Positions 21,381 through 62,762 of a DNA stretch of 64,000 nt are shown here, piece by piece. Below the pieces are notes generated by a model. It was not told the origin of the DNA, made no database searches, and saw only the letters and a program-made list of their open reading frames with translations. How positions within the stretch are numbered: the first letter of the stretch is position 1; the number at the start of each line of letters is the position of its first letter. Origin of the DNA: an uncultured Chitinophagales bacterium (lineage in GTDB: Bacteria; Bacteroidota; Bacteroidia; Chitinophagales; S012-47); assembly GCA_964422925.1 (NCBI GenBank), contig CAYRDC010000006.1:8854-72853 (forward strand). Direction: 5' to 3'. The position numbers were made by a program, and so were the translations under genes.

Positions 21381-21398
21381 AAAAAGACATTTGGTACG

Positions 21399-28395: not shown

Positions 28396-29397
28396 CTAAT
28401 ACAGCCGGGCGGGATAATACCGGAGGTAAAACCGGTACATCCGGTTGAACAGGTACCGGCTCATGTTTTCCCCGCGGGCTCGTTTCCATGAAGACCCCTT
28501 TGGCTCCATGACCGGGTAATCGAAATCCTGGAACACAAACGAAAAGGCTTTGTTCAGATAAGCAACCTCCATGGGGTGAATGGCTGATTTCCACCGGTCG
28601 AGGTTGGATGCGTCAATCCCCGAAAACCTTGTACCGAACACACTGTTGCCGCCCCAGGGCCGGCCCCCGATGCTTGGATTCAGCAGAACCGGGTCGAAAC
28701 CGATCCCAAGGAATTCGCAGGCTTTCCGCAGGGTGCTTTCCGGGTCGCGCACCAGGTCTTCATAACGCATGACAAAGTAGCCGGGAATCAGCGCCCGGTT
28801 ATAGTACAGGAAATAGTAGTTGTTGTAAAAAGTCCGGATCATCCGGTTTATCAAAGGGTACGGTCCGTTGACGCTCCGGAATTTGCGCAGGGACACAAAG
28901 TTGGCATATGGGTTCCGGATTACGTGGATGAATTTCGCCTCCGGGAACCAGCTTTTCAGCAGGGGGACGAATTCCGCGTTTTCGACCGATTTTTCGACAA
29001 AGCGGCTTCCCTTGCTGTCAAACTTTGCCGCGTGCCGGATGCAGTCAAAATACAGGCGCATCAATTCCGGCCCGGCCCGGAAATCAGCCAATGACTCAGG
29101 CCGGAATTTCTCCTGAAAGGCTTCAGGATCGACTAACCCCGAGGCAAAATTGTCGGCATAGGCGTTTTCCTCGGAGGCTGCTTTCCGGATGAATCGGGTA
29201 AACCGTCCGGCCAGGGTTTCCGGATCGTACTTTTGCGGAAGGGAAAACCGGTATTCGTTGTCCACCCAGAAACCGGCCAGTTGAAAGAAATGACTTTCGA
29301 AAGGGATAACAAACAACTCCGGATGCCCGTCCAGCAATGAGCGCATCAAGGTCGTGCCTGACTTATGAACACCTGTTATAAAAATCGGGGCCTGCAT
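28396..29397 (-). CDS. PAPS-dependent sulfotransferase family protein
   Basis: 5'-PSB-like loop GVHKSGTTLMRSLL and 3'-PB-like VIRNPYANFVSL. Size and layout match bacterial Sulfotransfer-type enzymes. Confidence 0.8.
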   Translation of the reverse strand: MQAPIFITGVHKSGTTLMRSLLDGHPELFVIPFESHFFQLAGFWVDNEYRFSLPQKYDPETLAGRFTRFIRKAASEENAYADNFASGLVDPEAFQEKFRPESLADFRAGPELMRLYFDCIRHAAKFDSKGSRFVEKSVENAEFVPLLKSWFPEAKFIHVIRNPYANFVSLRKFRSVNGPYPLINRMIRTFYNNYYFLYYNRALIPGYFVMRYEDLVRDPESTLRKACEFLGIGFDPVLLNPSIGGRPWGGNSVFGTRFSGIDASNLDRWKSAIHPMEVAYLNKAFSFVFQDFDYPVMEPKGSSWKRARGENMSRYLFNRMYRFYLRYYPARLY

Positions 29398-29411
29398 TGG
29401 AAGCCGGAAAT

Positions 29412-29419
29412 TAGTTTTG
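29412..29419 (+). promoter_or_regulatory. Bacteroidota -7 box match (TAGTTTTG) upstream of GT4 gene
   Basis: Exact TAnnTTTG match ending 20 nt before the TTG start at 29440. Confidence 0.35.
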
Positions 29420-29439
29420 AAGCAGTTAATTGATCGACT

Positions 29440-30615
29440 TTGACGCAGCGAAAATTACGCATTTTATTTGTCCCAAGCTGGTACCCGGAACCCGGTTATC
29501 CCATCCGGGGCATTTTTATTAAGAACCATGCCCAGTGCCTGAAAGAGGATGCCGACCTGCAGGTATTGTATGCCTGGGGCGGCCCGGGCTTGGACTTCCG
29601 GATTGAAACCAAAACGGATGACGGGATTCCCACTACTTATGTGACCTTTCCTTTCAACGGGAAAAGTAAAACCAGCATTGGCTATATCATTCGCTATCTG
29701 CGTGCCATTCGGAAAGGTTATAAAACCATTATCCAACAGGATTGGGAACCCGATCTGTTCCATGCCCATGTAGCCTACCCGGCCGCCCTGTTCTGCGCCT
29801 GGCAGGCCCGAAAGGAGAAAAAACCCTTCGGCATTACCGAACACCTCGACCTCTACCTCCGCGAAATGCATGGTCTGCAAAAACCGCCCGCATTGGGCAA
29901 ATGGGTGCGGAAAAAACTGGCCGAAAAAGCCGCTTTCATGACCGTGTGCTCCACTTCCATGAAGAAAGCCTATGAATGGATTGGCGTGAAACGCGAAGTC
30001 AGCGTGGTACCGAACAGCATCAATTTCGCAACACCCCCTTCCCCCGGTTTCAGTCAAAAAGAAAAAAAGCAGCTCCTGCACATCTCCACCCTGCGCGACC
30101 ACCAGAAAAATGTGAGCGGCCTGTTGCGCGGCATACACCGCCTGGTGCAGCAGGGCAGAACCGATTTTGAAATGCATATTCTCGGTTCCGGGGATGAGAT
30201 GGAACAGAGGAAACAGCTGGCCCGGGAACTCGGCCTGCTCGGCACTATCGTGTTTTTCCACGGTTTCGTGCCTGAAGAAGAAAAGCAGCGGTTCCTCCGC
30301 GACAGTCATGTGTACGTGATGTTCAGCAATTATGAGGGTTTTTCCGTGGTTACGGCCGAGGCTATCAGTAGCGGCTTACCGGTTATTACCACCCGCTGCG
30401 GAGGCCCGGATGATTTTGTTACGGAAGAAAACGGTTTGGTCATCTCCGTGGGCGATGAAGAAGCCCTGGCCCGGGCCATCAACTACATGCTGGACAACTA
30501 CGAAAAATACGCCCGGATCAAAATGCACGAAGACATGCAGCAACGGTTTGGATGCAAGGCTATAAGCAGGATGTTTATGGAGCTTTATAGGAAAGCTTTA
30601 CCGGAAATTACTTGA
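29440..30615 (+). CDS. glycosyltransferase family 4 (GT-B, group 1)
   Basis: N-terminus LRILFVPSWYPEP. C-terminal half has HGFVPEEE...YVMFSNYEGFSVVTAEAISSGLPVITTRCGGPDDFV (EX7E-type motif). Confidence 0.85.
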   Translation: MTQRKLRILFVPSWYPEPGYPIRGIFIKNHAQCLKEDADLQVLYAWGGPGLDFRIETKTDDGIPTTYVTFPFNGKSKTSIGYIIRYLRAIRKGYKTIIQQDWEPDLFHAHVAYPAALFCAWQARKEKKPFGITEHLDLYLREMHGLQKPPALGKWVRKKLAEKAAFMTVCSTSMKKAYEWIGVKREVSVVPNSINFATPPSPGFSQKEKKQLLHISTLRDHQKNVSGLLRGIHRLVQQGRTDFEMHILGSGDEMEQRKQLARELGLLGTIVFFHGFVPEEEKQRFLRDSHVYVMFSNYEGFSVVTAEAISSGLPVITTRCGGPDDFVTEENGLVISVGDEEALARAINYMLDNYEKYARIKMHEDMQQRFGCKAISRMFMELYRKALPEIT

Positions 30616-31537
30616 TGTAACCGTATTTTCTGAGATTCTTCTCCATGCCCCGCAGGATAACCTGCCGGTAGTATTGTGGCAGATCGGTTTCCCATTTACC
30701 GACAGAAGCCGTGGAAACCGGGTTTTTCAGGTTCTCAAAGGCCTTCATTTTCCCGCGGGAGCCCATTTTTTCAAGGTATTCTGCTTGTTTATCCAATACA
30801 GGTTCAGGGTTTACATCTAAAAAGCGGCAAATGATATCAAGGGTTTTCTCCGGTTCGCTTACAAGGTCCTCGTACTTAACGAGCAGAAAACTGTCTTCCG
30901 AAGTTTTTCTCCGGACCATTTCAATCATCTTCAGGCTGTAATTCCATTTCCTGAGCACATAACGGGTATCTGCCTGTTCATTTTTTTTGAATATGGAAGC
31001 GGCCACATCTCGCCCATCCCGGATCAGCGCGATAAACCGGGCATCCGGGAACACAGGAAATATATACTTGAAATAATCGGTGTTTTTAGGGCTTTTATCT
31101 CCCCATGTAGTGAAGGAAAAACCATGCTGCTTACCATAAGCGGTATAAATATGATCCAGGATGACCCGGAGACTCCGTTGGTTTTTTGGAAGACGGAAAA
31201 GCTCCTCTATTATTTCCCCGGCATTGAGATTCCATTCCATGGTAGCACTTGTCCGGCTAAATTCTCCCACAATAATACTGACCAGGTCTAACCATTCCAG
31301 GTAATTATACAACCGGTATTTGACAATGGTATTGGCCAAGACAAATTGTTCCGGAGGCACCAATAATTGACTGTGCTGGTCGAGCAAAGCTGCCAACAAG
31401 GTTGTACCACTGCGTCCTGAACTCAAAATAAAAAACGGACGGCACGATAATTCTTCATCACGGGCTTGCACAAGATGCCGTTTGGGTAACAAACGGCTAA
31501 TTTGAGTTATAACAGGCAGGAATTTCTCTAGTCTCAT
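30608..31537 (-). CDS. PAPS-dependent sulfotransferase family protein
   Basis: 5'-PSB-like FILSSGRSGTTLLAALL and 3'-PB-like LIRDGRDVAASI. Its 3' end overlaps the convergent GT4 gene by 8 nt. Confidence 0.8.
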   Translation of the reverse strand: MRLEKFLPVITQISRLLPKRHLVQARDEELSCRPFFILSSGRSGTTLLAALLDQHSQLLVPPEQFVLANTIVKYRLYNYLEWLDLVSIIVGEFSRTSATMEWNLNAGEIIEELFRLPKNQRSLRVILDHIYTAYGKQHGFSFTTWGDKSPKNTDYFKYIFPVFPDARFIALIRDGRDVAASIFKKNEQADTRYVLRKWNYSLKMIEMVRRKTSEDSFLLVKYEDLVSEPEKTLDIICRFLDVNPEPVLDKQAEYLEKMGSRGKMKAFENLKNPVSTASVGKWETDLPQYYRQVILRGMEKNLRKYGYIK

Positions 31538-31900
31538 GGAATTACTGATTGTAATGGGGGCGGTGGCAATTCAGTCCTCACCATTTCTAACAATATATTT
31601 TCTACATCACCTTCCGATACCATCAAAAATAAGATTCTCTGGCCTTCGCAAATAATTAGCGGATATTTTGCCGTCTGTCTATAAACAGATTTTTACCTCC
31701 TATTATATATTTAATTGGTTTTTACCTGTCGGACAGCCATCAGAATATCCACAGCAATGAAACACTTAATACACTTTCGGTTTTTTAGATCTGCTTCACC
31801 TTTTCTCGAAAAAGCAACACTGACTCAGTGTGCCATTAACAAAATCTTTATTATTTTTAATCATTAAGTTCCAACCCCTAACTAGCTGCACCTCATTAAT

Positions 31901-34900
31901 ATGAAAAAAATATTCCTGATCCTTCCGTTGCTGTTGCTTCCTCATTTTCTCCTTTCGCAAACTCCATTTATTCGAATTTTTGGTGGACCTGGAACCGATA
32001 TCGGCAATGGAGTGATTCAGGCCTATGATGGCGGATATTGGGTAGTTGGCAGAACTAATTCTTTTGGCGCTGGTGGAACGGATATCATTGTTCTGAAATT
32101 AAACACATCCGGGGTAATTGAATGGGAAAAAACCTATGGCGGTGTGAACAATGAAGGAGGAATCTATGGTGTTTTTGCCACGGAAACCCAAGACCACGGA
32201 CTGGCTGTTGCCTGTGAAACCAAGAGCTTCAATGCCACGCAAAATGATGCATATCTGATCAAAATTGACAGTGTTGGCAATGTACTTTGGGATGCAAGAT
32301 ACGATGCCGGACCCGGAACTTCAGGAGGTGATTACTTCCGGGGCATTAAAGAATTAAGCACAGGAGAACTGCTGTTGACTGGCTCAATCAACAGTGGAGT
32401 TCTTGGACTCTCAGATGCTTTAATCATGAAATTCACTGCATCAGGCAATCTGATATGGAAGAAAATTATTGGCGGTATTTACGTAGATCACATCTACGAT
32501 GTGATCGAATTACCCAATGGCGATTACGCCTTTTTCGGTAATACAGGCACATGGGGCAACGGCTCAAACAATGCCTGGGTTATTAGAACAGATACAAGTG
32601 CAAATCTGGGCTGGGCGAAAGTTTATGCAGGGTCAGGAATTGATAACTTTTCAGAAGGAATACTGACTTCTGACGGTGGATTATTGCTGGGAGGCATTAC
32701 TTCTTCCTACGGTTCCGGGAATTTCGACATTTATCTTGTCAAACTTAGCATTGACGGTACGCTTCAATGGGCAAAAACCTATGGTGGATCAAATCTCGAA
32801 TGGCTGAATGGATTGCAGGAGCTACCTTCGGGCGGGTACTTGTTGAGAGTATATTCAAAATCGTATGGGCCCGGTGAGGATATTTTGCTAATCAGCATCG
32901 ACACTACCGGCAATATTACCTGGAGCAAATCCTATAAAATAATTCAAAGTGGTAGTTCAGGATCCCTGGTAAAAATCAAAGGTGCAATCGATGTAACCAA
33001 TGATGGAGGGTTTATTTTCACCGGATGGGTTATTGACAGCAGTGGATTTGGCGGAAAGGATATCCTTGTATTCAAGTCAGATTCGAGTGCTTATGCTTTG
33101 TGCGACACAGTACTTGTCACAAGCACAACACCGACCGTGCAACCTATTAATGCAAGTCCTTCTTTTACCAATGTAGGGGCAATTCATGATCCATTGACAA
33201 TACATACTTCTCCGACAGTATCCGACACAGCCTCTTGTCCGTGTTTTCAGGTTTCCTCTGCTTTAATCTCCAACGACACCACCATTTGCCAGGGAGACAG
33301 CATTCCTTTGCAGGCTACCGGAGGAACAACTTACAATTGGTCGCCTGCATCGGGATTAAGTTGCAACACTTGCTCCAACCCGGTGGCCAGCCCAAATGTC
33401 ACCACCACCTACACAGTTACCTTTGACCAGGGGCAGGTTTGCGAATCCCAGGACAGCATCACAGTATTTGTACACGTGCCTCCTTCCATCAACTTGGGGG
33501 CTGACACCACCATTTGCTCTTACGACCAGCTCGTACTGGATGCCGGAACGGGTTTTTCCTCTTACCTCTGGGAAGACTCATCCACCACCCAGACGCATAC
33601 CGTGTCGTGGTCCGGTGATACTACAATGATGTTTTATGTAACTGCTACGGATTCCATCGGATGTGCTTCCGCTGATACCATACTGGTCACTTTTGACAAG
33701 CCACCGGTTATTGACCTCGGGCCTGATACCTTGCTGTGTGCGGGCACTCAGTATCTGCTGGATGCGGGACCGGGGTTTGCCAGCTATGTCTGGCAGGATA
33801 AATCAAGCGGGCAGACCTACATGGCTTCCGCGCTGAACGATACGACCATTTTATACACAGTTACCGGAAAGGATTATATAGGTTGTATTTCTTCCGATTC
33901 TGTTTGGATCACCTTTCACAAGCCACCTGTCATCCAACTCGGGCCCGACACGGTGATTTGTTCCGGTGCACAACTGTTGCTGGATGCCGGGCCGGGATTT
34001 GTTTCCTACCTGTGGGAAGACCAATCGACCGGGCAAATCCATATCGTTTCCGCATCCAACGATACTTCCCTGCTATATTACGTGACCGGTACTGATTCGC
34101 AGGGATGCGTTTCTTCGGATACCATCCAGGTTGGATTCCATGTTCCGCCAGCCATAGACCTGGGGCCTGATACTTTGCTTTGCCAGGCTGACACAATACT
34201 GCTGGATGCCGGGCCCGGGTTTACCACATACCTTTGGGAAGACCAGTCAACCGGGCAAACACACCTGGTGTCCAGCACAGCCGACACCGTGCTTCTGTAT
34301 CATGTGACTGCCACGGATAGCCTCGGCTGCACATCTGCAGATTCCATCAGCATTCACTTTCACAATACCCCGTCAATCGACCTCGGGCCCGACACCGTAT
34401 TGTGCGATGGTGGTCAAATCCTGCTGGATGCCGGGCCGGGGTTCAGCCAATACACCTGGCAGGATCAGTCCAGCGGGCAGTTTTTCACCGCTTCAGCCTC
34501 TGGTGACACTACCATCCTGTTTTATGTGACTGCCACGGATAGTCTCGGCTGTACTTCTGCCGACAGTATTGAAGTTTACTTCCATCTTCTTACAGCCATT
34601 CATCTCGGGAATGACACCCTGCTTTGTGCCGGTGAACAATTGCTGCTGGATGCCGGGCCGGGGTTCGCTTCATATGTTTGGGAAGACCAGTCCACCGGGC
34701 AAACCCATATCGCTTCCGCGTCAAACGATACCTCCCTGCTATATTACGTGACCGGTACTGATACGCAGGGATGCGTTTCTTCGGATACTATCCAGGTTGG
34801 ATTCCACGTTCCGCCCGCCATAAACCTGGGGCCTGATACTTTGCTTTGCCAGGCTGACACAATACTGCTGGATGCCGGGCCCGGGTTTACCACATACCTT

Positions 34901-36622: not shown

Positions 36623-36650
36623 GCCGGGCGGGAACCACCCCGTCTGATTC

Positions 36651-38144: not shown

Positions 38145-38261
38145 AAGCCAAGGGTATGGCGGCAAATTTACCACAAAAGTGCTGCGGCAGTGGAATGATT
38201 TAAGCACAGCTTTTCATAATCAGCCGGATTTGATTAACATTGTGCAAACACTTTAAGCGGT

Positions 38262-38900: not shown

Positions 38901-40009
38901 CCCAAAGCGCGAAGCTGATCGCTCACTTCCTTTGTCAATGATCCATGTGCCATATCCTGAATAGCCCAGTTTTCCGGGAAGGAAATCGTATCGCGCAGGC
39001 CCTGTTTGGGATCGATAATGTGGAAGGCCGTACGATTGGTGTCGATGGCCAGAACCAGGGAGCCCAAGGGAATGGCATTCTGAAGCCATTCCATGTCTTG
39101 CAATGCCTCCGGTTTGCCGGGTAAGGCAGAAAAATCATACCGGGTTTCTTCCTGCAAACCCAGCACCATTATTTCTCCGGAAGCCGTGCTGGTGGCCATA
39201 TACCCGTCCAGGTAAACCCGGCCACCGTGGGGATTCTTCAGGCCGGTGATCAGCGGAGTGGCTACTCCGGCCACGGGATTGATACGGTAAACCGCCCCTT
39301 CATGAAAGAAAGTGGCCAGCCAGTAAGCCGGGTCATGCCCGTCATATACCACGGAATTGATAAAAGCCGCCCGCTGGGCCGTGGGAAGAACCTGTTTCTC
39401 CGGTTCCTGGATCAAGCGGCAGGCTATGCCGTCTTCCTCAAACTGTTTTGCCCGGAGCGGATTGCGTGTCAGCTTCAGCGGTTCTCCGGTCTCCGGGTCC
39501 ACAGCCGTGTCGAATCCGTAGTCCCAGGCAAACCATTCGTGCCGAACCGCGTGTTCCACCATCGACCAGTCAAAAATGGCATCAAAACCGGAAGAGGAAA
39601 TGAGAATATGGTGCCCGCCCCGGCTGATGGCCACGGTATGGATATAGCTGAACCAGGGATGTTCTATGGTCTCGGTTCGCTCCCCGTCCAGTACATACAC
39701 CTTGTTTTCCGCGGCCAGGGCCAGCCAGCCTCCCCTGATATCGATACCACGAGGCTCCTGCAGTTTGCAAAGCACTTCCTGCTCCGTGAGCCGGCCGTTT
39801 TCCAGCACCACCCGGGCAATGCCCCCCGTGGCAGTAGGCCTGCGTTCCACGCTCCCCGCCCGACCGGATTTATTGGCCCGGCTGGCCAGGTAACGCTCGC
39901 GGATAGCCTCCAAATCAAAACTCTTTATGGTCAGCATCAGCTCGATGCGGCCGTAAAAGCCGTGCGATTCAAGGAATGTGGCAATATCGATATGCTTGGT
40001 TGAATTCAT
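38897..40009 (-). CDS. hypothetical protein, last gene of the YfhO-GT4 operon
   Basis: 370-aa ORF with ordinary composition. It shares 4-nt start/stop overlaps with the GT4 gene upstream and with the convergent PIG-L gene. The competing + ORF 39227-40003 is R/G/P/H-rich, as shadow ORFs are. Confidence 0.6.
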   Translation of the reverse strand: MNSTKHIDIATFLESHGFYGRIELMLTIKSFDLEAIRERYLASRANKSGRAGSVERRPTATGGIARVVLENGRLTEQEVLCKLQEPRGIDIRGGWLALAAENKVYVLDGERTETIEHPWFSYIHTVAISRGGHHILISSSGFDAIFDWSMVEHAVRHEWFAWDYGFDTAVDPETGEPLKLTRNPLRAKQFEEDGIACRLIQEPEKQVLPTAQRAAFINSVVYDGHDPAYWLATFFHEGAVYRINPVAGVATPLITGLKNPHGGRVYLDGYMATSTASGEIMVLGLQEETRYDFSALPGKPEALQDMEWLQNAIPLGSLVLAIDTNRTAFHIIDPKQGLRDTISFPENWAIQDMAHGSLTKEVSDQLRALG

Positions 40010-41304
40010 CGGGACAGTTTATCCAGTATGCCCGCCAGCTTTCCGGTCATGGCTTTGCGGCTGAATTGCCGGTAGCCTTCCCCTTCATAAGCCGGGACCA
40101 GGCCCCCATTGGCTTTCCAGAGTTCAAAACTACGGAGTATAAATTCCCGGATGGCTTCCCGGCCAAAATAATCCATCATAGGGTCGCAGCCAGCCTGCTC
40201 AAGCAGCCTGGCAGCATCGCCACCCGAAGGGCCGAGGGCCAGTATCCGGCTCCCGGAAGCCATATACTCAAATATTTTTCCGGTCAGAATAAGGTGGTTG
40301 TTTTCCGCTTGCGGCACGATAAACAGCAAGAGATCTGCTGCCTGCATCCGGGCTACCGCTTCCTGGTGCGGCACGAAAGGTTCTGTGACAACATATTTTC
40401 CGAGCCCGGCTGAATTAATGGACTGTAAAATGCCCGGGTCTACGATGCCCGTAAACCGTAGTTCCAGCTTTCCGGCAAACTCCGGATCCTTCTTTGCCAC
40501 CCCGGCCAGGATTTCCCACAACACCGGCACGTCCTGATTCGGTTTGTAATTGCCAGTATAGGTGATCCGGAATTTTTCATGAGGTTTCTTTTCAGGCGGC
40601 TGAAAATCGGCTTCGTCATACCCGTTAAAAATGAGTTCGACCTGCCGGCTCCGCCCATGGAATTCTTCCAGCAGGCCGGGGCTGATGACAGTAACGGCAT
40701 CCGCACCGGCCAACACGCTGTTTTCCAGTCGCTGGTCTTTCGTCCGGGTTCGTTCAGACCGCGGGAAATAGGCATTGTAATACACGGTGGTCCAGGGATC
40801 GCGGAAATCGGCCACCCATGGCATGCCCAGCTTCTTCAGGCGCAGGCCCGCCAGATGGGTGCTGTGGGGCGGCCCGGTGGTGATGACAGCATCCGCCCCG
40901 TTTTCCCGGATAAATCGTTTGGCAGCCCGGTAAGCATAGGGCATCCAACCCTTCCGCGCGTCCGGCACAAAGAAATTCGCACGGATATACCGGGCAAGGT
41001 ATTGCACGGGCGAACGGCTGTCGCGGTAGCCTATCATACCTACCGAAACCGATTTCCCCTTCTTCCCGGTCAGGCGGTTATAGAGTGTGTAGGGTTCAAA
41101 GGTTTTGGTTTTGATCACATTCACCCCTTCGGGGATATCCTCCTCGAGCGTAGGGTCGAGGTAGGGATAAGAGCCCCTTGCCGGAGTGATTACCACGGGT
41201 TCCCAGCCAAACCCGCGCAGGTATTTGCAGAATTTCAGGAATCGCTGCACGCCCGGCCCTCCGGCAGGAGGCCAGTAATATGTCAGGATGAGCACTTTTT
41301 TCAT
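40006..41304 (-). CDS. glycosyltransferase (GT4-like, GT-B fold)
   Basis: MKKVLILTYYWPPAGGPGVQRFLKF is a typical N-terminus. The C-terminal half has LLFIVPQAENNHLILTGKIFEYMASGSRILALGP. It has 4-nt overlaps on both sides. Confidence 0.8.
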   Translation of the reverse strand: MKKVLILTYYWPPAGGPGVQRFLKFCKYLRGFGWEPVVITPARGSYPYLDPTLEEDIPEGVNVIKTKTFEPYTLYNRLTGKKGKSVSVGMIGYRDSRSPVQYLARYIRANFFVPDARKGWMPYAYRAAKRFIRENGADAVITTGPPHSTHLAGLRLKKLGMPWVADFRDPWTTVYYNAYFPRSERTRTKDQRLENSVLAGADAVTVISPGLLEEFHGRSRQVELIFNGYDEADFQPPEKKPHEKFRITYTGNYKPNQDVPVLWEILAGVAKKDPEFAGKLELRFTGIVDPGILQSINSAGLGKYVVTEPFVPHQEAVARMQAADLLLFIVPQAENNHLILTGKIFEYMASGSRILALGPSGGDAARLLEQAGCDPMMDYFGREAIREFILRSFELWKANGGLVPAYEGEGYRQFSRKAMTGKLAGILDKLSR

Positions 41305-43994
41305 TCCGCAGCTTCTTCAGGCTCCGTGGCCGGCCGCATTCGGCATTGCCTGATTTTCCAGCCGATAACCCCGAAAAACAGCAACAGGATCAAAACGGAA
41401 GCAGCCAGGGATATCTTCTCGCCCTTGTAGTATGAACCCGGCTCAAACCGGAACTCGATGGTATGTTCCCCGGCCGGGATACGCATGGCCCGCAGCACAT
41501 AATTCACCCGGATATGGGGTACAGGTTTCCCGTCTAAGTAAGCTTTCCAGCCTTTGTGGTCGTTGTAATAAATTTCAGAAAATACGGCAAACTGCTCGGT
41601 GGCAGCCCGGCTCTGGTAAATGAGCCGGTTGGGCGCATAATCGCTCAGGGTGATAGAGGCCGTGCTGTCGGGCTGATACGTCCAGCCCTGCAAGTAATCC
41701 GCAAACGGGGGTTCCACCACGGCCACCCGCTCCAGGGGAAGCGTACCCAGGGTGTCGAGCGCCTGGTCGGGGCCGTCAACCAGCAGCAATTCCCTGATAA
41801 ACCATGCATTGCCCAGGTGCCGGCTCATGGGCAGTACGCCCTGTTCCGATGCCTGGAATATGAGGTATTTGGTGTTGAGCATGCGCAGCACCGGTGAATT
41901 GAGCAGCATGTCTATCCCGGTTTCTGACCGGCTCGCCTGGTTCACCACCGGGATTACCCAGCGGTCGTACAGCTCCTGGTAACGCTGCATTTTGGCACCA
42001 TGGTAACCGCCTATGGATTTGTGGTAATAAGAGGTGGTCGCATCGTTAAACGGGCTAACCGACAGGTTATACACCCGGAAATCTGTGTGCATGTTCAGCA
42101 CTTTAAATTTCAGATCAGTAAGTTCCCGCGCGCTTAACCTGGGCGCCACGTGGCGGTAACGCCTCGGGTTTTCAGCTTTCAATTCTTCCTGCCGGGCTTT
42201 CACCGCTTCGTTAAAGGCGGGTTGCAGATCCGGATGCAGCGTGTACTCCGCGTTCAGGATGGTCATATCAGCCCCGGTAGGTGCGAGGGCTTTTTCCAGG
42301 AAATCCTTTTCATAACTGTCATTATTCAAAAACCGTTTGTCCACGCCCCACAGGTCGATAAGGATGAGGGCTCCGGCCAGGGCCAGGATGATTTTGCGCG
42401 AGATTTTCTGCTTCAAGTACAGGAACAATCCCCCCGCGCCCAGCAGTACAAACACCAGCGATCTTAACGCGTCTATACGGACAAGCCGCGCGCGGTCGGC
42501 ATGAATGGCATTGAGCAGGGTATCGGCCTGCTGCGGCAGGGCCGAATAAATGACATTATCCGCATCGGTTTTTATTCCCGCGATGCCGGGAAACAGTACG
42601 AGGAGCAGCAGGATGCCACCTGTCACCCCACCGGCTATTTTCAGGGCTTTCAGTGCTCGTTTCCGGTCGAGCCGGCCATGGATCAGTTCCGCCAGCCCCA
42701 GCGCGGCCAGCAGCGGGAACAGCAACTGGGCAATTACCAGGATCATAGACACCGTCCGGAATTTCTTGTACAGCGGGAAATAATCAAAAAACAAGTTCGT
42801 GAGGGGCTCAAAGTTTTTCCCCCAGGCCAGCATGATCGAAAGGATTACGGCAGCCAGAATGCCCCACCGCAGGGCATTGTCGCGCAGGACAAACAGGCTG
42901 AAAAGGAACAGGAAGCAGACAAGCGCCCCGAAATACACGGGCCCGCTGGTAAAGGGCTGGGGGCCCCAGTAACTTCCGAGGTTTTGCATAACCGCCTGGG
43001 CAGCCTGCGGGTTTTCTTTCTGTACCTTTCCGAAATTAATCTGCCGCAATGCCTGCAGGGTGCGGCTGCCTTCTTTATACAAGGCCTGCATGCTCGAGCC
43101 GCCTGCGAAATTCGGCACCAGGAGGGTCATGGTTTCGCCCTTGCCGTAGCTCCAGGCCAGGGCATAATCCTTGTCCAGTCCGCCTTTTTTCTCCTTATCC
43201 GGGTTTTTCAGTTCGGTGCCCCCACGGATGGACACTTTGCTGTATTCATAGGTAGTCCACAGCCGGGTTGTATTGGCCCCGGCTGCCAGCAATAGAGCCA
43301 GCGCGAACAAGCCGGCCCGGTAGGCAAAAGCGGGTAGCTGCCGTTGGTTCCAGGCTCTGACCAGTTCGGCAATGCCAAGCACCAGCAGCATGATCATGGT
43401 GTAATAGAATATTTGCGGGTGATTGGTATATAATTGAAGGCCCATAGCCAGCGCGGCCAGGGATGCCCCGATCCACCGGTTCCCCCGGAAGGTAAGCACA
43501 AAGCCCGCCAGCACCAGGGGCATATAAGCTATAGCGGCCGCCTTGGTGTTGTGCCCCGCTTCAATATTGATTATCTCGTAGGATGACAAGGCAAAGGCCA
43601 CTGCCCCCACCAGGCTTATCCAGGGATCTACCCGGAAGGCCAGCATCAGGATAAAAAAGGACACCATACCGATAAACAGCGTTCGTGCCGGCCCCGGCAG
43701 AAAACCGAGCGAAGCCAGCTTATGAACATTGCGCAGGAGATTGCCATGCGTGATCATGGAAATCTGGTAGGCCGGCATACCGGAAAAGGCCCGGTTGGTC
43801 CAGAGGGCTTCCTTGCCGGTGTCGTGGCGGTAGTCCACGATTTCCTTGGACATGCCGCGGCTCTGCTTCACGTCCTGCTGCTTCAGCGATTTTCCCTCAA
43901 ACAGCGGGCGGAACATAAAAAAGGTAATCAGCACAAAAACGGCCAGTGCCGCCACGTACGGCAGGGCCTTTTTCAGTCGGCTCACAGGATTCAT
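41301..43994 (-). CDS. YfhO family membrane protein (GT-C-type glycosyltransferase candidate)
   Basis: 897 aa. The N-terminal region QQDVKQSRGMSKEIVDYRHDTGKEALWTNRAFSGMPAYQI and the many TM helices match Bacteroidota YfhO proteins. It has a large C-terminal soluble domain and a final TM helix. Confidence 0.85.
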   Translation of the reverse strand: MNPVSRLKKALPYVAALAVFVLITFFMFRPLFEGKSLKQQDVKQSRGMSKEIVDYRHDTGKEALWTNRAFSGMPAYQISMITHGNLLRNVHKLASLGFLPGPARTLFIGMVSFFILMLAFRVDPWISLVGAVAFALSSYEIINIEAGHNTKAAAIAYMPLVLAGFVLTFRGNRWIGASLAALAMGLQLYTNHPQIFYYTMIMLLVLGIAELVRAWNQRQLPAFAYRAGLFALALLLAAGANTTRLWTTYEYSKVSIRGGTELKNPDKEKKGGLDKDYALAWSYGKGETMTLLVPNFAGGSSMQALYKEGSRTLQALRQINFGKVQKENPQAAQAVMQNLGSYWGPQPFTSGPVYFGALVCFLFLFSLFVLRDNALRWGILAAVILSIMLAWGKNFEPLTNLFFDYFPLYKKFRTVSMILVIAQLLFPLLAALGLAELIHGRLDRKRALKALKIAGGVTGGILLLLVLFPGIAGIKTDADNVIYSALPQQADTLLNAIHADRARLVRIDALRSLVFVLLGAGGLFLYLKQKISRKIILALAGALILIDLWGVDKRFLNNDSYEKDFLEKALAPTGADMTILNAEYTLHPDLQPAFNEAVKARQEELKAENPRRYRHVAPRLSARELTDLKFKVLNMHTDFRVYNLSVSPFNDATTSYYHKSIGGYHGAKMQRYQELYDRWVIPVVNQASRSETGIDMLLNSPVLRMLNTKYLIFQASEQGVLPMSRHLGNAWFIRELLLVDGPDQALDTLGTLPLERVAVVEPPFADYLQGWTYQPDSTASITLSDYAPNRLIYQSRAATEQFAVFSEIYYNDHKGWKAYLDGKPVPHIRVNYVLRAMRIPAGEHTIEFRFEPGSYYKGEKISLAASVLILLLFFGVIGWKIRQCRMRPATEPEEAAE

Positions 43995-44040
43995 CAGGTC
44001 AGGTTTTGATGAAGGTAAAAGTAAAAAGAAATTGGCACGG

Positions 44041-44865
44041 CTATGACCCCTTGTTCGGGGTTTCGGCCACCACGATCAAACCGGTTCCCGTGCGGTGGTT
44101 GCCCAGCACGTCAAACCGGTTGAGAACCCATGCCACCGGGTAGGTGAGCAGGTAGTACAGGGGCAGCACCACGAAGAAGGCTTTGGAGCGGTTGAGCATC
44201 AGCAAAGGATATTTCATGGACAGGCGCCAGCTTACCTGGCCCGGCCTGCCGTAGCTGTAACGCACCCTGACATCGGAAAAGCCGGCCCTGAGCAGCTTGT
44301 CGCGGATTTCTTCGCGCCCGTAGCCGTCACGCACATGCTCCCCGATGAAGGATTCTTCATGATCGTCATGCACATCGCTGCCGCCCTGGTCGGACGGTGT
44401 GCTGATAATAAGGCGGCCACCGGGTTTCAGCGAGGCGGCAAAATGGCGGAACACCCCGACATCGTCTTCGATGTGCTCCATGACATCCACCGAAAGGATG
44501 AGGTCGAAACTGCCGGGTTGCTCAAAGCGGGTGAGGTCTTCCACGCGGAATTCCACGTTACTGCGGCCGGTGCTGCGGAAAAACCGGTTGCAGTCTTCCA
44601 CCTGGTCTTCCTTCACATCCACGGCCAGGATTTCCCAGCGGGGGTTCATGCGGCTGAGGTACCAGGTGTACTGGCCGAAACCGCTGCCCGCGTCCAGGAT
44701 GCGGGCGGGCTGGTACCTGCGGCCCCTGGCCCACTGGCGCAGCTCGCGGTGCACGTGCCAGGCACGCAGCAGCAGCAGGTCCAGCAAACGGTAAAACAAT
44801 TTCCGCAAAAAAGGCGAGCGGTTGAACGCCCTGCCCAGCACTCTTTTAATCGGGTCGTATTGCAT
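44041..44865 (-). CDS. class I SAM-dependent methyltransferase
   Basis: Motif I ILDAGSGFGQYTWYL, plus post-I/II features (ILAVDV, DLILSVDVMEHI). I use the ATG at 44865 (MQYDPIKRVLG). Confidence 0.8.
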   Translation of the reverse strand: MQYDPIKRVLGRAFNRSPFLRKLFYRLLDLLLLRAWHVHRELRQWARGRRYQPARILDAGSGFGQYTWYLSRMNPRWEILAVDVKEDQVEDCNRFFRSTGRSNVEFRVEDLTRFEQPGSFDLILSVDVMEHIEDDVGVFRHFAASLKPGGRLIISTPSDQGGSDVHDDHEESFIGEHVRDGYGREEIRDKLLRAGFSDVRVRYSYGRPGQVSWRLSMKYPLLMLNRSKAFFVVLPLYYLLTYPVAWVLNRFDVLGNHRTGTGLIVVAETPNKGS

Positions 44866-62639: not shown

Positions 62640-62762
62640 GTACCAAACTTTAAAAGAATCCCACACGGTATTTAACAGACAGGATTGTAATATTAGGGAA
62701 ATTCTCCCGTACATAAAAATGAATTTTGTTAAGAATGCAACCCCCGCTGAAGGTTAATCCGG

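What the first reader, a model, noticed from the sequence alone, without database searches (positions are those of the whole stretch)
28396..44865. Strand-mosaic glycan-modification locus wrapped around a giant T9SS cargo gene: candidate cargo-dedicated glycosylation/sulfation system
Seen: within 16.5 kb the order is sulfotransferase(-), GT4(+), sulfotransferase(-), 1573-aa T9SS type A cargo(+), Wzx-like flippase(-), PIG-L deacetylase(+), then a minus-strand operon of methyltransferase, YfhO, GT4 and an orphan 370-aa protein joined by 4-nt overlaps. Classical polysaccharide loci are long co-directional operons with Wzy/Wzz or ABC export genes. This locus has no polymerase, chain-length regulator, initiating phosphoglycosyltransferase or nucleotide-sugar synthesis gene that I can recognise, and a secreted repeat protein sits in the middle. 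Established: T9SS type A cargo is attached to an anionic LPS glycan after CTD removal in Porphyromonas, and Bacteroidota O-glycosylate exported proteins. YfhO-type GT-C enzymes transfer sugars from polyprenyl-phosphate donors on the outer face of the membrane. Inference: the locus may build and decorate (sulfate, methyl, de-N-acetylation) a short lipid-linked glycan that is transferred onto this adhesin or its anchor, rather than a capsule.
Basis: partly seen in the sequence, partly recalled or inferred. Interest (0 to 1): 0.7.

Follow-up and report, generated by a model that had tools for sequence, protein, structure and literature searches.

The report
Shared glycan locus, not adhesin-dedicated
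The sugar-building and sulfating genes around this giant secreted adhesin gene are a widely conserved Bacteroidota glycan-transfer module that occurs in about 80 other genomes without the adhesin, so they are a general cell-envelope glycosylation pathway rather than a private system for this one protein.

Summary
The "orphan" 370-aa protein is a strongly conserved beta-propeller, with at least 356 homologues at 45-60% identity.

In 79 other genome loci it lies in a fixed core: YfhO-family GT-C, then GT4, then propeller, with a convergent PIG-L deacetylase. A Wzx flippase is nearby in about half of them.

The nearest relatives keep the whole backbone (TMEM260-like, SpoU, epimerase, methyltransferase, YfhO, GT4, propeller, PIG-L, Wzx, aldehyde dehydrogenase) without the adhesin.

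The sulfotransferase-GT4-sulfotransferase trio is itself a conserved alternating-strand cassette. It is linked to YfhO, PIG-L, Wzx and an AsnB-like gene in four other lineages, again without this adhesin. Relatives of the adhesin's N-terminal domain (80 loci, 399 kb) never carry these enzymes. T9SS cargo genes are not enriched near the core.

The YfhO here belongs to the phylum-wide family that a 2026 preprint predicts, in silico only, to be the missing general O-oligosaccharyltransferase.

Best reading: a general Wzx/GT-C pathway for a de-N-acetylated, sulfated, methylated glycan. The adhesin is a lineage-specific insertion and, with 48 O-glycosylation sequons, a likely client. The acceptor is not established.

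The parts
28396..29397 (-). Sulfotransferase 1 (333 aa, cytoplasmic; PAPS-binding motif at the N-terminus). First gene of the conserved sulfotransferase-GT4-sulfotransferase cassette.
   Evidence: PF13469 at 103.6 bits. No TM segment or signal peptide. Orthologues at 47-50% identity in the same cassette position in L083-L086 and L169.
29440..30615 (+). GT4 glycosyltransferase 'GT4a' (391 aa). Middle gene of the cassette, divergent from sulfotransferase 1 across only 42 nt.
   Evidence: PF00534 at 107.9 bits and PF13439. Orthologues at 32-52% identity in the same position and strand. Spacer sequence read.
30608..31537 (-). Sulfotransferase 2 (309 aa, GC 0.446). Its 3' end overlaps the GT4a 3' end by 8 nt, convergently.
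   Evidence: PF13469 at 111 bits. Homologues at 50-58% identity always in the trio. GC value.
31538..31900 (.). AT-rich divergent intergenic region (GC 0.358) between sulfotransferase 2 and the cargo gene. It contains one Bacteroidota-type TTTG...TAnnTTTG match facing sulfotransferase 2.
   Evidence: The promoter match is not statistically significant (2 found, 1.24 expected).
31901..36622 (+). T9SS type A cargo/adhesin, 1573 aa. Layout: signal peptide; about 400-aa propeller-like N-terminal region (GC 0.438); Ig_7 domain (aa 457-528); 13 tandem 74-aa repeats (aa 532-1494, nt 33494-36382); CTD (aa 1502-1573). It is a lineage-specific insertion and its own transcription unit.
   Evidence: Pfam and NCBIfam. 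Sequence and repeats. 48 D[ST][AILVMT] sequons against 10.5 expected, z=12. No orthologue in the 79 core loci.
33931..35262 (+). Recent tandem duplication of a three-repeat (666-nt) unit inside the cargo gene. A 99%-identical metagenome contig (L001) lacks one copy, giving 1351 aa instead of 1573.
   Evidence: Copies at 33931 and 34597 are 90% identical, against 60-66% for other repeat pairs. Comparison with L001.
36625..36646 (.). GC-rich hairpin with T-runs on both strands, between the convergent stops of the cargo gene and wzx. It looks like a bidirectional terminator.
   Evidence: consensus scan only.
36651..38144 (-). Wzx-type MOP flippase. About 497 aa from the ATG at 38144; the longest ORF runs to 38207.
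   Evidence: PF01943 at 53 bits. About 12 hydrophobic segments. Start taken from the L001 gene call. 55% identical orthologues adjacent in L003 and L004. Present within 10 kb in 19 of 39 well-flanked loci.
38262..38900 (+). LmbE/PIG-L-family GlcNAc de-N-acetylase (212 aa). Convergent with the propeller gene, with a 4-nt overlap. Core module member.
   Evidence: PF02585 at 62.5 bits. H15, D17, D18 and H118-Q-D-H121 are invariant in 30 homologues. Closest solved relatives are diacetylchitobiose deacetylase and BshB. Present in 34 of 39 loci. 3' ends within 50 nt in 49 of 65 loci.
38897..40009 (-). It matches no described family. Core module member.
   Evidence: No Pfam, NCBIfam or PADLOC hit. 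356 homologues. 62 invariant columns in 26 sequences. AlphaFold pLDDT 92.7. Only generic propellers found in the PDB, TM about 0.5. Distant homologous domains are fused to NUDIX, SMODS-associated NUDIX, PRTase or OGFr_N domains.
40006..41304 (-). GT4 glycosyltransferase 'GT4b' (432 aa). Overlaps both neighbours by 4 nt. Core module member.
   Evidence: PF13579 and PF13439. Present in 38 of 39 loci. A 4-nt overlap with the propeller gene in 32 of 63 loci. Weak PDB matches to BshA, 2jjm and 3mbo.
41301..43994 (-). YfhO-family GT-C glycosyltransferase (897 aa): about 13 TM helices, a periplasmic C-terminal domain and a final TM helix. Member of the phylum-wide Bacteroidota YfhO family.
   Evidence: PF09586 at 31 bits here and matched by 31 of 31 homologues. 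5814 homologues. AlphaFold pLDDT 84. Top Foldseek hits are AftD, ArnT, Stt3, AftA, PglB and Pmt4. D41 in the first loop is invariant. Present in 35 of 39 loci.
44041..44865 (-). SAM-dependent methyltransferase (274 aa) with one C-terminal hydrophobic segment, 46 nt upstream of yfhO. Conserved only in the Chitinophagales-type relatives.
   Evidence: PF13847 and PF08242. 63-65% identical in L003 and L083. Absent from most other loci.
44990..45946 (+). NAD-dependent epimerase/dehydratase (318 aa), divergent from the methyltransferase.
   Evidence: PF01370 at 101.6 bits. Syntenic in L003, L016, L051, L052 and L083.
47016..50231 (-). Context only: TMEM260-like (DUF2723) GT-C with a TPR tail (1071 aa). 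A second GT-C about 3 kb from yfhO, syntenic in the closest clade.
   Evidence: PF11028 at 226.8 bits. 70% identical in L003. Also present in L016, L051, L052 and L083.

Best explanation
The interval is a composite of three pieces with different histories.

1. A conserved module built around the phylum-wide Bacteroidota YfhO-family GT-C. The genes yfhO, GT4 and beta-propeller are read together, with 4-nt overlaps. A PIG-L/LmbE deacetylase is convergent on the propeller gene. A Wzx flippase lies nearby. In this clade a methyltransferase and an NAD epimerase are added.

2. A conserved sulfotransferase-GT4-sulfotransferase cassette on alternating strands. In other lineages it sits beside the same YfhO/PIG-L/Wzx genes.

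3. A lineage-specific T9SS adhesin gene inserted between them as an independent transcription unit.

Proposed mechanism (inferred, none of it shown):
- On the cytoplasmic face the GT4 enzymes extend an oligosaccharide on a polyprenyl carrier. The carrier is primed by an enzyme encoded elsewhere.
- A GlcNAc residue is de-N-acetylated by the PIG-L enzyme.
- The two cytoplasmic sulfotransferases (presumably PAPS-dependent) and the methyltransferase decorate the glycan.
- Wzx flips it, and the YfhO GT-C transfers it on the periplasmic face.
- The acceptor is most likely many exported proteins at D(S/T)(A/I/L/V/M/T) sites, that is, the general Bacteroidota O-glycosylation system, not one cargo.
- The adjacent adhesin, with 48 such sites, would be a heavy client but not a dedicated partner.

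Confidence split: about 0.85 that the system is general and the cargo adjacency is incidental; about 0.45 that the acceptor is protein.
For: - Core conservation. Among 39 loci with at least 5 kb on both sides, GT4b is present in 38, YfhO in 35, PIG-L in 34 and Wzx in 19. Gene junctions are conserved.
- Nearest relatives. L003 and L004 (55-80% identical proteins) share the backbone from the TMEM260-like gene to aldehyde dehydrogenase. They carry a GT9-like gene plus a small sulfotransferase-like gene in place of trio plus cargo.
- The trio. It is orthologous (47-58% identity for the sulfotransferases) and keeps its strand pattern in L083, L084/85, L086 and L169. It is next to PIG-L in L083, and within about 9 kb of YfhO and next to AsnB-like and Wzx in the others. 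L171 has YfhO, PIG-L, three sulfotransferases, GT4, AsnB-like and Wzx.
- No cargo linkage. The cargo has no orthologue in any core locus. 80 loci (399 kb) with relatives of its N-terminal domain hold no homologue of any locus enzyme. Type A CTD genes occur at 0.53 per 10 kb within 1 kb of the core and 0.35-0.42 further out.
- GT-C identity. 31 of 31 homologues match PF09586. The model has pLDDT 84, and its best solved-structure matches are AftD, ArnT, Stt3, AftA, PglB and Pmt4. The first-loop Asp is invariant.
- Family breadth. The same YfhO family occurs without the module in Pontibacter and with GT4b only in Lentimicrobium.
- Literature. A 2026 preprint predicts in silico that Bacteroidota YfhO is the missing general O-OTase. 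A 2025 review states that the OTase, the ligase and the core flippase are undiscovered and that O-glycans carry methyl and, rarely, amino groups.
- Variable neighbours in other taxa (NeuB, CMP-sugar synthetase, DegT, AsnB-like, methyltransferases) are typical of outer-glycan loci.
- Sequon density. The cargo has 48 against 10.5 expected, z=12.
- The sulfotransferases and GT4s lack signal peptides and TM segments.
Against: - No experiment links any Bacteroidota YfhO to protein glycosylation; the preprint's case is in silico only.
- That preprint notes YfhO is absent from Porphyromonas gingivalis, which nevertheless has an O-glycoproteome (PMC8729774, listed). YfhO therefore cannot be the universal OTase.
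- Characterised YfhO enzymes of Firmicutes use polyprenyl-phosphate monosaccharide donors made by a GT2. No GT2 and no initiating transferase is in the window.
- The GT4b-propeller-PIG-L set occurs in only a subset of Bacteroidota (115 genome stretches found).
- Sulfate has not been reported on Bacteroidota O-glycans.
- The same gene content would fit an O-antigen-like or other lipid-linked product.
- The role of the propeller is unknown.
- I could not check whether these genomes hold a second YfhO paralogue.
Confidence: 0.45

Rival explanations
1. Envelope glycolipid or LPS reading. The same pathway logic applies (assemble, de-N-acetylate, sulfate, flip, transfer by GT-C). The acceptor, however, is lipid A/core, an O-antigen-like chain or another polysaccharide, giving a charged (amino plus sulfate) surface glycan. 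Protein glycosylation is not involved.
For: - In other taxa the core abuts typical O-antigen/EPS-type genes: UDP-GlcNAc 2-epimerase, DegT, NeuB, hexapeptide acetyltransferases, Bac_transf and Poly_export.
- The GT-C model is structurally closest to lipid- and polysaccharide-modifying enzymes, AftD and ArnT.
- From general knowledge: the order glycosyltransferase, de-N-acylase, flippase, GT-C is that of ArnC/ArnD/ArnT and Bordetella LgmA/LgmC/LgmB, which put amino sugars on lipid A. Firmicute YfhO proteins glycosylate lipoteichoic acid (PMC5836110).
Against: - No Wzy, Wzz, WaaL-like or lipid A genes are in the window.
- The preprint reports that YfhO is conserved phylum-wide and predicted essential in many Bacteroidales. 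That is unusual for an O-antigen decoration enzyme.
- The first enzyme here is a GT4, not the GT2 of the Arn/Lgm/Gtr schemes.
Confidence: 0.25
2. Cytoplasmic small-molecule reading. GT4b, PIG-L and the propeller make a soluble GlcN-containing metabolite, in the manner of the bacillithiol or mycothiol pathways. Their linkage to YfhO, Wzx and the sulfotransferases would then be positional only.
For: - All three proteins lack signal peptides and TM segments.
- A GT4 plus an LmbE/PIG-L deacetylase is the first-two-step pattern of BshA/BshB and MshA/MshB. The nearest solved relatives by sequence are BshA (2jjm, 3mbo) and BshB (6p2t).
- The best NCBIfam hit of PIG-L is BshB1.
- Distant homologues of the propeller domain are fused to nucleotide-handling domains.
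Against: - Scores are far below the equivalog cut-offs: BshB1 61.5 against 182.5, and GT4b has no BshA hit at all. The PDB E-values for GT4b are only about 7e-4.
- No BshC/MshC-like ligase is present.
- yfhO and GT4b are contiguous and co-directional in 35 of 39 loci, often overlapping.
- YfhO-PIG-L adjacency persists in L171 without GT4b or the propeller.
Confidence: 0.1
3. General T9SS-anchor reading. The module builds the anionic glycan or linking sugar to which all type A T9SS cargo are attached after CTD removal, an analogue of P. gingivalis A-LPS. It would serve this adhesin together with every other type A cargo.
For: - In other taxa the core is often flanked by an AsnB-like amidotransferase (WbpS-like), a DegT aminotransferase, an Acetyltransf_6 protein (the Pfam family I take VimA's FemAB-like match to fall in; my inference) and a DUF7033 protein. 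Compare the Wbp/Vim pathway in PMC7468200.
- Sulfation would give an anionic glycan.
- 23 of 79 loci have a type A CTD gene within 10 kb.
Against: - P. gingivalis, the organism where A-LPS anchoring is established, lacks YfhO.
- The window has no Wbp or Vim homologues apart from generic GT4s.
- VimE is a CE4 esterase, not a PIG-L enzyme.
- CTD genes show no enrichment towards the core.
Confidence: 0.07
4. The enzymes form a glycosylation/sulfation system dedicated to the 1573-aa adhesin or its anchor, and have assembled around its gene.
For: - Physical adjacency in this genome.
- Extreme sequon density in the adhesin's repeats: 48 against 10.5 expected.
- From general knowledge: dedicated adhesin glycosylation systems exist elsewhere, such as S. 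mutans Pgf with YfhO-like PgfM1/M2 and S. aureus SdgA/SdgB. NCBIfam gives weak hits to PgfM1/M2 and SdgA/B, far below their cut-offs.
Against: - The enzymes occur without the cargo in every one of 79 other loci and in all other trio contexts.
- Relatives of the cargo never carry the enzymes.
- The CTD protein near the trio in the L084 group is unrelated to this cargo and has 0-1 sequons.
- The cargo is a separate transcription unit with its own AT-rich upstream region and a terminator-like hairpin.
- Its N-terminal half has a different GC content (0.438) from the module (about 0.56).
Confidence: 0.05

Closest known systems
General protein O-glycosylation loci of Bacteroidota (B. fragilis LFG; the Tannerella forsythia O-glycosylation gene cluster)
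   Same: A Wzx flippase plus several cytoplasmic glycosyltransferases and methyltransferases, with a variable species-specific gene set. The glycan is assembled on a lipid carrier and moved to the periplasm. Clients carry D(S/T)(A/I/L/V/M/T) sites, which the adjacent adhesin has in excess.
   Different: - No metG-wzx start and no demonstrated homology to the two conserved LFG glycosyltransferases (not tested).
- A YfhO GT-C lies inside the locus.
- Sulfotransferases, a PIG-L deacetylase and an uncharacterised propeller are present.
- Sulfate is not among the modifications listed for these O-glycans.
YfhO-family GT-C systems of Firmicutes (B. subtilis YfhO and Listeria GtlB for lipoteichoic acid; S. 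mutans PgfM1/PgfM2 for adhesins)
   Same: Pfam family PF09586, a multi-TM GT-C fold with an extracytoplasmic domain, and transfer on the outer face of the membrane (PMC5836110). Knowledge of the Pgf system is my own.
   Different: - Only a distant member: 31 bits, with PgfM1/M2 models at about 20 bits against cut-offs of 1400-1500.
- No GT2 (CsbB/GtrB-type) donor synthase and no GtcA-type flippase.
- Instead paired with Wzx, GT4 and PIG-L.
P. gingivalis A-LPS and the Wbp/Vim linking-sugar pathway for T9SS type A cargo
   Same: It concerns the glycan fate of type A T9SS cargo, and an anionic glycan is involved. Relatives' loci carry AsnB-like, DegT and Acetyltransf_6 genes, like WbpS, PorR and VimA.
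   Different: None of WbpA/B/D/E, VimA or VimE is in the window. VimE is CE4, not PIG-L. P. gingivalis lacks YfhO.
GT4 plus LmbE/PIG-L 'add GlcNAc, then de-N-acetylate' pairs (PIG-A/PIG-L, MshA/MshB, BshA/BshB)
   Same: A GT4 lies close to an LmbE-family deacetylase (one gene, the propeller, lies between them) that has the conserved His/Asp metal site. The nearest solved relatives are BshA and BshB.
   Different: Far below the equivalog thresholds, no third-step ligase, and genetic coupling to a membrane GT-C and a flippase.
Amino-sugar lipid A modification pathways (ArnC/ArnD/ArnT; Bordetella LgmA/LgmC/LgmB). Recalled from general knowledge.
   Same: The same logic: a transferase loads an N-acylated sugar on a lipid carrier, a de-N-acylase unmasks the amine, and a GT-C transfers it in the periplasm. 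ArnT is the second-best structural match of the YfhO model.
   Different: The first enzyme there is GT2 and the deacylase is a different family. No sequence-level membership was found here.

Membership tests
T9SS type A cargo (the 1573-aa protein) | C-terminal type A sorting domain (PF18962 / TIGR04183) at the extreme C-terminus | tested here: met
   PF18962 at 36 bits (cut-off 27) and TIGR04183 at 36.3 bits (cut-off 23), residues 1502-1572 of 1573. Also recovered by my own iterative HMM, E=1.4e-21.
T9SS type A cargo (the 1573-aa protein) | N-terminal Sec signal peptide | tested here: met
   Read from the sequence: MKKIFLILPLLLLPHFLLSQ, a hydrophobic segment at residues 4-22. No dedicated predictor was run.
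T9SS type A cargo (the 1573-aa protein) | T9SS machinery present in the genome | not testable with these tools
   Only 64 kb is available. Three other CTD-bearing genes in the window (one type A, two CHU_C) imply a T9SS.
YfhO-family GT-C glycosyltransferase | Match to PF09586 at or above the gathering score | tested here: met
   31 bits against 28.5, but only the last 47 profile positions. 31 of 31 homologues match, best E 3.8e-18.
YfhO-family GT-C glycosyltransferase | GT-C fold with a conserved acidic residue in the first extracytoplasmic loop | tested here: met
   AlphaFold pLDDT 84.2. Foldseek probability 1.00 to AftD, ArnT, Stt3, AftA and Pmt4, although TM-scores are low at 0.26-0.44. D41 is invariant in two alignments.
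YfhO-family GT-C glycosyltransferase | Uses a polyprenyl-phosphate-linked donor on the outer face of the membrane | not testable with these tools
   Biochemical property. No GT2 donor synthase is in the window.
Wzx/Wzy-dependent polysaccharide (O-antigen or capsule) locus | Wzx flippase | tested here: met
   PF01943 at 53 bits.
Wzx/Wzy-dependent polysaccharide (O-antigen or capsule) locus | Wzy polymerase, Wzz/PCP chain-length regulator and an initiating phosphoglycosyltransferase in the locus | tested here: not met
   None found among all ORFs of at least 150 aa in the 64 kb. No unassigned multi-TM ORF lies in the interval. Wzy proteins are hard to detect by sequence, so the absence is not absolute.
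Bacteroidota general O-glycosylation locus (LFG type) | wzx plus a run of glycosyltransferases, with methyl-type decorations | tested here: met
   Wzx, two GT4s and a methyltransferase. Locus definition from the review.
Bacteroidota general O-glycosylation locus (LFG type) | metG-wzx start and the two terminal glycosyltransferases shared by all LFG loci | tested here: inconclusive
   No metG in the window. Homology of GT4a and GT4b to the conserved LFG transferases could not be tested, because no reference sequences were held.
Bacteroidota general O-glycosylation locus (LFG type) | The glycan is found on many exported proteins at D(S/T)(A/I/L/V/M/T) | not testable with these tools
   Needs glycoproteomics. 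Only sequon density could be measured: 48 against 10.5 in the adhesin.
   The enzymes occur without the adhesin in 79 core loci and in all trio contexts. Adhesin relatives occur without the enzymes in 80 loci.
P. gingivalis Wbp/Vim linking-sugar pathway | WbpA/B/D/E, VimA (FemAB-like acyltransferase) and VimE (CE4 deacetylase) | tested here: not met
   No such domains in the window. Definitions from PMC7468200.
Bacillithiol / mycothiol-type GT4 plus LmbE pathway | Equivalog-level match to BshA/BshB or MshA/MshB, and a third-step ligase | tested here: not met
   BshB1 at 61.5 bits against a cut-off of 182.5. GT4b has no BshA or MshA hit. GT4a scores 83 against 273.7 for BshA. No ligase is present.
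LmbE/PIG-L deacetylase (the 212-aa protein) | PF02585 match with conserved metal-binding His/Asp motifs | tested here: met
   62.5 bits. PHPDD and HQDH are invariant in 30 sequences.

The most novel reading that the evidence does not exclude
This neighbourhood may bring together the still-unidentified machinery of Bacteroidota general protein O-glycosylation. A TMEM260-like protein O-mannosyltransferase homologue (47016-50231) would be the enzyme that starts the mannose-based core on Ser/Thr. The YfhO GT-C (41301-43994) would be the ligase or OTase that adds the Wzx-flipped outer glycan. The GT4-propeller-PIG-L set and the sulfotransferase cassette would make a de-N-acetylated, sulfated outer glycan, a modification type not yet reported for this system. 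The uncharacterised propeller would be a new nucleotide-sugar-handling component.
Probability: 0.2. Interest if true: 0.8.

Novelty: new variant of a known kind. Interest (0 to 1): 0.45.

Why it matters
The identity of the oligosaccharyltransferase and ligase of the phylum-wide Bacteroidota O-glycosylation system is still listed as unknown in a 2025 review (PMC12871550). A 2026 preprint nominates YfhO on in-silico grounds only.

This analysis adds genomic-context evidence. In at least about 80 species the YfhO gene is physically coupled to glycan-assembly genes: a GT4, a PIG-L deacetylase, an undescribed conserved beta-propeller, and often Wzx. In some lineages a conserved sulfation cassette is added.

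That gives concrete, testable partners, and one culturable carrier (Salibacter halophilus KCTC 52047). It also predicts amino- and sulfate-bearing glycans.

More generally, a secreted protein gene sitting inside a glycan locus is not evidence of a dedicated relationship where T9SS cargo genes occur roughly every 16-27 kb.

Tried and rejected
- Tandem Repeats Finder found nothing in the cargo gene. The 222-nt units are only 60-66% identical and the 666-nt duplication exceeds the period limit. The repeat finder and protein-level parsing resolved it.
- Sequence-profile searches of the PDB gave nothing for the propeller or for YfhO.
- PADLOC gave no defence-system match, apart from a generic methyltransferase-domain hit. 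I therefore dropped a conflict-system reading prompted by the GT4-conflict Pfam hit and the NUDIX fusions.
- The sigma-70 promoter scan was uninformative: 15 found against 14.6 expected. The Bacteroidota-type promoter motif was not significant: 2 against 1.24.
- Rfam found only two tRNAs.
- I could not name the source organism.
- I considered bacillithiol or mycothiol synthesis and rejected membership on NCBIfam thresholds.
- I considered that the recurrent CTD genes beside the core (L035/37/38, L070/75/76) signal a real association. I rejected this because their density shows no gradient and the proteins are unrelated to the cargo beyond the CTD or Ig-like parts.

Full report
**1. Observation**

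| Coordinates | Strand | Call |
|---|---|---|
| 28396-29397 | - | Sulfotransfer_3 |
| 29440-30615 | + | GT4 ("GT4a") |
| 30608-31537 | - | Sulfotransfer_3 |
| 31901-36622 | + | 1573-aa protein with Ig_7 and a type A T9SS C-terminal domain |
| 36651-38207 | - | Polysacc_synt/Wzx |
| 38262-38900 | + | PIG-L |
| 38897-40009 | - | 370-aa ORF, no family hit |
| 40006-41304 | - | GT4 N-terminal domains ("GT4b") |
| 41301-43994 | - | Weak YfhO hit (31 bits, cut-off 28.5) |
| 44041-44865 | - | Class I methyltransferase |

- The 4-nt overlaps join YfhO/GT4b and GT4b/370-aa. The methyltransferase is 46 nt away from YfhO.
- PIG-L and the 370-aa gene overlap convergently by 4 nt.
- Just beyond the stated end lie an NAD epimerase/dehydratase (44990-45946, +), a SpoU methylase, and a 1071-aa TMEM260-like (DUF2723) GT-C with a TPR tail (47016-50231, -).
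- The rest of the 64 kb is housekeeping. It holds three more T9SS cargo genes and no Wzy, Wzz or initiating phosphoglycosyltransferase.

**2. The "orphan" is the most conserved gene of the locus**

- The 370-aa protein has 356 homologues among the scored candidates. The listed ones are 45-60% identical over nearly full length. They come from Flavobacteriales, Bacteroidales, Chitinophagales, Cytophagales and Balneolaceae.
- A 26-sequence alignment has 62 invariant columns.
- An exhaustive profile search of 1.84 billion cluster representatives finds 469 at E<=1e-3 and 113 at E<=1e-30.
- AlphaFold gives a confident beta-propeller (pLDDT 92.7). It has only generic propeller neighbours in the PDB (TM about 0.5) and no sequence match to any solved structure.
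- It has no signal peptide.
- More distant homologous domains are embedded in large proteins that also carry NUDIX, SMODS-associated NUDIX, phosphoribosyltransferase or OGFr_N domains. This hints at a nucleotide-derived ligand and is only a lead.

**3. Comparative genomics of the right half**

A scan of one genome per species, using the alignment as query, returned 115 relatives and 80 loci with up to 10 kb of flank. I analysed them by tblastn with the window's proteins and by independent all-against-all clustering of ORFs.

A fixed core emerges: yfhO, GT4b and the propeller on one strand, and PIG-L on the other strand directly after.

| Gene | Present among 39 loci with at least 5 kb on both sides |
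|---|---|
| GT4b | 38 |
| YfhO | 35 |
| PIG-L | 34 |
| Wzx | 19 |

- The junctions are conserved. GT4b and the propeller overlap by 4 nt in 32 of 63 loci.
- The propeller and PIG-L 3' ends lie within 50 nt in 49 of 65 loci.
- None of these loci contains an orthologue of the cargo. Only short 24-36% matches to Ig-like or CTD parts occur.
- The sulfotransferases and GT4a are also missing from nearly all of them.

**4. The closest relatives**

L003 (a Chitinophagales MAG) and L004 have 55-80% identical proteins. In the orientation of the loci, they keep this order: TMEM260-like, SpoU, epimerase, methyltransferase, YfhO, GT4b, propeller, PIG-L, Wzx, (slot), aldehyde dehydrogenase, M1 peptidase.

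In the slot they have a GT9-like gene (55.8 bits) and a 213-aa protein with a sub-threshold sulfotransferase match (19 bits, cut-off 22). The window has sulfotransferase 1, GT4a, sulfotransferase 2 and the cargo gene there.

The slot is therefore a variable region of a conserved backbone. In the relatives it holds glycan enzymes but no cargo.

**5. The left half is a cassette of its own**

- Homologues of sulfotransferase 2 were placed in their contigs. The order sulfotransferase, GT4, sulfotransferase on alternating strands recurs in four other lineages (L083, L084/85, L086, L169/170). The proteins are orthologous: sulfotransferases 47-58% identical, GT4a 32-52%.
- Fine structure is kept too. 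The divergent spacer between sulfotransferase 1 and GT4a is 30-42 nt. The GT4a and sulfotransferase 2 ends overlap by 4-10 nt.
- In L083 the trio sits directly after PIG-L of a complete module (TMEM260-like through PIG-L) and is followed by an AsnB-like amidotransferase and Wzx. No type A CTD gene is found on those 16.8 kb.
- In the L084 group the trio lies next to AsnB-like and Wzx, about 9 kb from YfhO.
- L171 reads YfhO, PIG-L, sulfotransferase, WbqC, two sulfotransferases, GT4, AsnB-like, Wzx.
The sulfation genes belong functionally with the YfhO/PIG-L/Wzx genes.
- The L084 group does have a 726-734-aa type A CTD protein 4.5 kb from the trio. It shows no similarity to the window's cargo (no hit at E<=1e-3) and has 0-1 sequons.

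**6. The cargo gene**

- Layout: signal peptide; a propeller-like N-terminal region of about 400 aa; an Ig_7 domain; thirteen exact-period 74-aa repeats (aa 532-1494); the CTD.
- A three-repeat (666-nt) unit is recently duplicated: 90% identity between the copies against 60-66% for other repeat pairs. A 99%-identical metagenome contig lacks one copy, giving 1351 aa.
- Its N-terminal third has GC 0.438 and the upstream intergenic region 0.358, against about 0.56 for the module.
- A terminator-like hairpin sits between its stop and the convergent wzx stop. It is thus a separate transcription unit.
- Relatives of its N-terminal 460 aa are abundant in metagenomes (385, best 39% identity). The 80 loci retrieved (399 kb; 11 of them at least 8 kb long) contain no homologue of any of the twelve enzymes at E<=1e-5.

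**7. Base rate of cargo genes near the core**

- I built a type A CTD profile iteratively from three seeds. Of its 40 hits, 38 lie at the extreme C-terminus.
- In the 841 kb flanking the core in 79 loci there are 31 such genes, or 1 per 27 kb, in 23 loci.
- Density is 0.53 per 10 kb within 1 kb of the core, and 0.35-0.42 per 10 kb between 1 and 7.5 kb out.
- The window itself has four CTD genes in 64 kb.
- A cargo gene next to the module is therefore what chance gives.

**8. What the module is**

- All 31 aligned homologues of the 897-aa protein match PF09586.
- The AlphaFold model (pLDDT 84) finds GT-C enzymes as its best solved neighbours: AftD, ArnT, Stt3, AftA, PglB and Pmt4, at probability 1.00 but with low TM-scores.
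- An Asp in the first loop (D41) is invariant.
- The family is very large in Bacteroidota: 5814 hits, many named "YfhO family protein".
- In Pontibacter the 43%-identical homologue follows a DUF4834 gene and has none of the partner genes. In Lentimicrobium it is followed by GT4b and then by CMP-sugar synthetase, NeuB and TagF-like genes.
- YfhO is therefore the constant, and its partners vary.
- PIG-L keeps the PHPDD and HQDH motifs. Its nearest solved relatives are diacetylchitobiose deacetylase and BshB.
- GT4b weakly resembles BshA.
- NCBIfam scores are far below the bacillithiol equivalog cut-offs.

**9. Literature**

- A 2025 review states that the OTase, the ligase and the core-glycan flippase of Bacteroidota O-glycosylation are undiscovered. 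It says the core pathway resembles eukaryotic O-mannosylation. It lists glycan decorations as methyl, acetyl and, rarely, phosphate, amino and others; sulfate is not mentioned (PMC12871550).
- A July 2026 preprint predicts, in silico only, that Bacteroidota YfhO is that OTase. It cites HHpred similarity to Pmt, phylum-wide conservation and predicted essentiality, and notes absence in P. gingivalis.
- The A-LPS linking-sugar pathway of P. gingivalis uses Wbp enzymes, VimA, VimE (CE4) and VimF (PMC7468200). None of these is in the window.
- I found no paper describing the YfhO-GT4-propeller-PIG-L module.

**10. Synthesis**

Shown:
- The locus is a composite.
- The core and the trio are conserved, are linked to each other, and are independent of this cargo.
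- The 897-aa protein is a GT-C of the phylum-wide YfhO family.

Inferred:
- Cytoplasmic assembly of a lipid-linked oligosaccharide by the GT4s.
- De-N-acetylation, sulfation and methylation of that glycan.
- Flipping by Wzx and periplasmic transfer by YfhO.

Speculative:
- The acceptor is the general O-glycoproteome. This is my preferred reading at about 0.45, against LPS or another lipid at about 0.25.
- With 48 sequons against 10.5 expected (z=12; 44 of them in the repeats), the adhesin is a plausible heavy client, not a private one.

**11. Verdict**

The dedicated-system interpretation is refuted by its own criterion. What remains is a moderately interesting, undescribed conserved partner set of the Bacteroidota YfhO, with a sulfation cassette. 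This bears on an open question but does not settle it.

Noticed in passing
window 47016-50231 (-): A 1071-aa TMEM260-like (DUF2723, PF11028 at 227 bits) GT-C with a TPR tail lies about 3 kb from yfhO. It is syntenic with SpoU, epimerase, methyltransferase and YfhO in L003, L016, L051, L052 and L083. Human TMEM260 is a protein O-mannosyltransferase for Ig-like IPT domains, and the Bacteroidota O-glycan core pathway is said to resemble O-mannosylation. This bacterial family appears uncharacterised.
   Followed up: partly
window 33931-35262 (cargo gene); L001 12757-16812: The adhesin has 13 repeats in the window, while a 99%-identical JGI contig has 10 (1351 aa). The difference is one 666-nt three-repeat unit that is 90% identical to its neighbour. 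It is either repeat-number variation between strains or an assembly collapse.
   Followed up: partly
window 29397-29440 and 30608-30615; L083, L084, L086, L169: The sulfotransferase-GT4-sulfotransferase cassette keeps a 30-42-nt divergent spacer and a 4-10-nt convergent overlap in five lineages. That spacer is very little room for two promoters. How these three genes are transcribed is unexplained.
   Followed up: partly
Loci L005-L081, downstream of PIG-L: The variable region after the core recurrently holds a DUF7033 protein (18 loci), an AsnB-like amidotransferase (14), a DegT aminotransferase, and an Acetyltransf_6 acyltransferase (the Pfam family I take P. gingivalis VimA's FemAB-like match to fall in). 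In Bacteroidales a glycerol-3-phosphate-dehydrogenase-like gene lies directly after PIG-L (12 loci). The set resembles Wbp/Vim-type sugar tailoring.
   Followed up: partly
Proteins P0404, P0413, P0461, P0470, P0497: Distant homologues of the 370-aa propeller occur as domains inside 750-6000-aa proteins. The ones scanned also carry NUDIX, SMODS-associated NUDIX, phosphoribosyltransferase or OGFr_N domains. This suggests the propeller binds a nucleotide-derived ligand.
   Followed up: partly
window 20445-22172 (-): A DUF368/VCA0040-like protein (undecaprenyl-phosphate translocase-like) lies next to a ComA (2R)-phospho-3-sulfolactate synthase homologue, about 6-8 kb from the locus. They touch carrier-lipid recycling and organosulfur metabolism respectively. 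No link to the locus was tested.
   Followed up: no
window 57044-59713 (-), 59727-62714 (-), 2887-4305 (-): Three further T9SS cargo genes. Two are adjacent large proteins with CHU_C (type B) CTDs: one carries SprB repeats, the other PKD and Ig_7 domains. The third is an M23 peptidase with a type A CTD. That makes four cargo genes in 64 kb.
   Followed up: partly
L010 and P0090: Two homologues of the propeller sit on contigs binned as Phycisphaerae and Limisphaerales, outside Bacteroidota and Balneolaceae. This is probably mis-binning, but horizontal transfer was not excluded.
   Followed up: no
window 805-2885 (+): A co-directional trio of a VTC-domain protein, DUF4956 and DUF2490 lies at the left edge of the window.
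   Followed up: no
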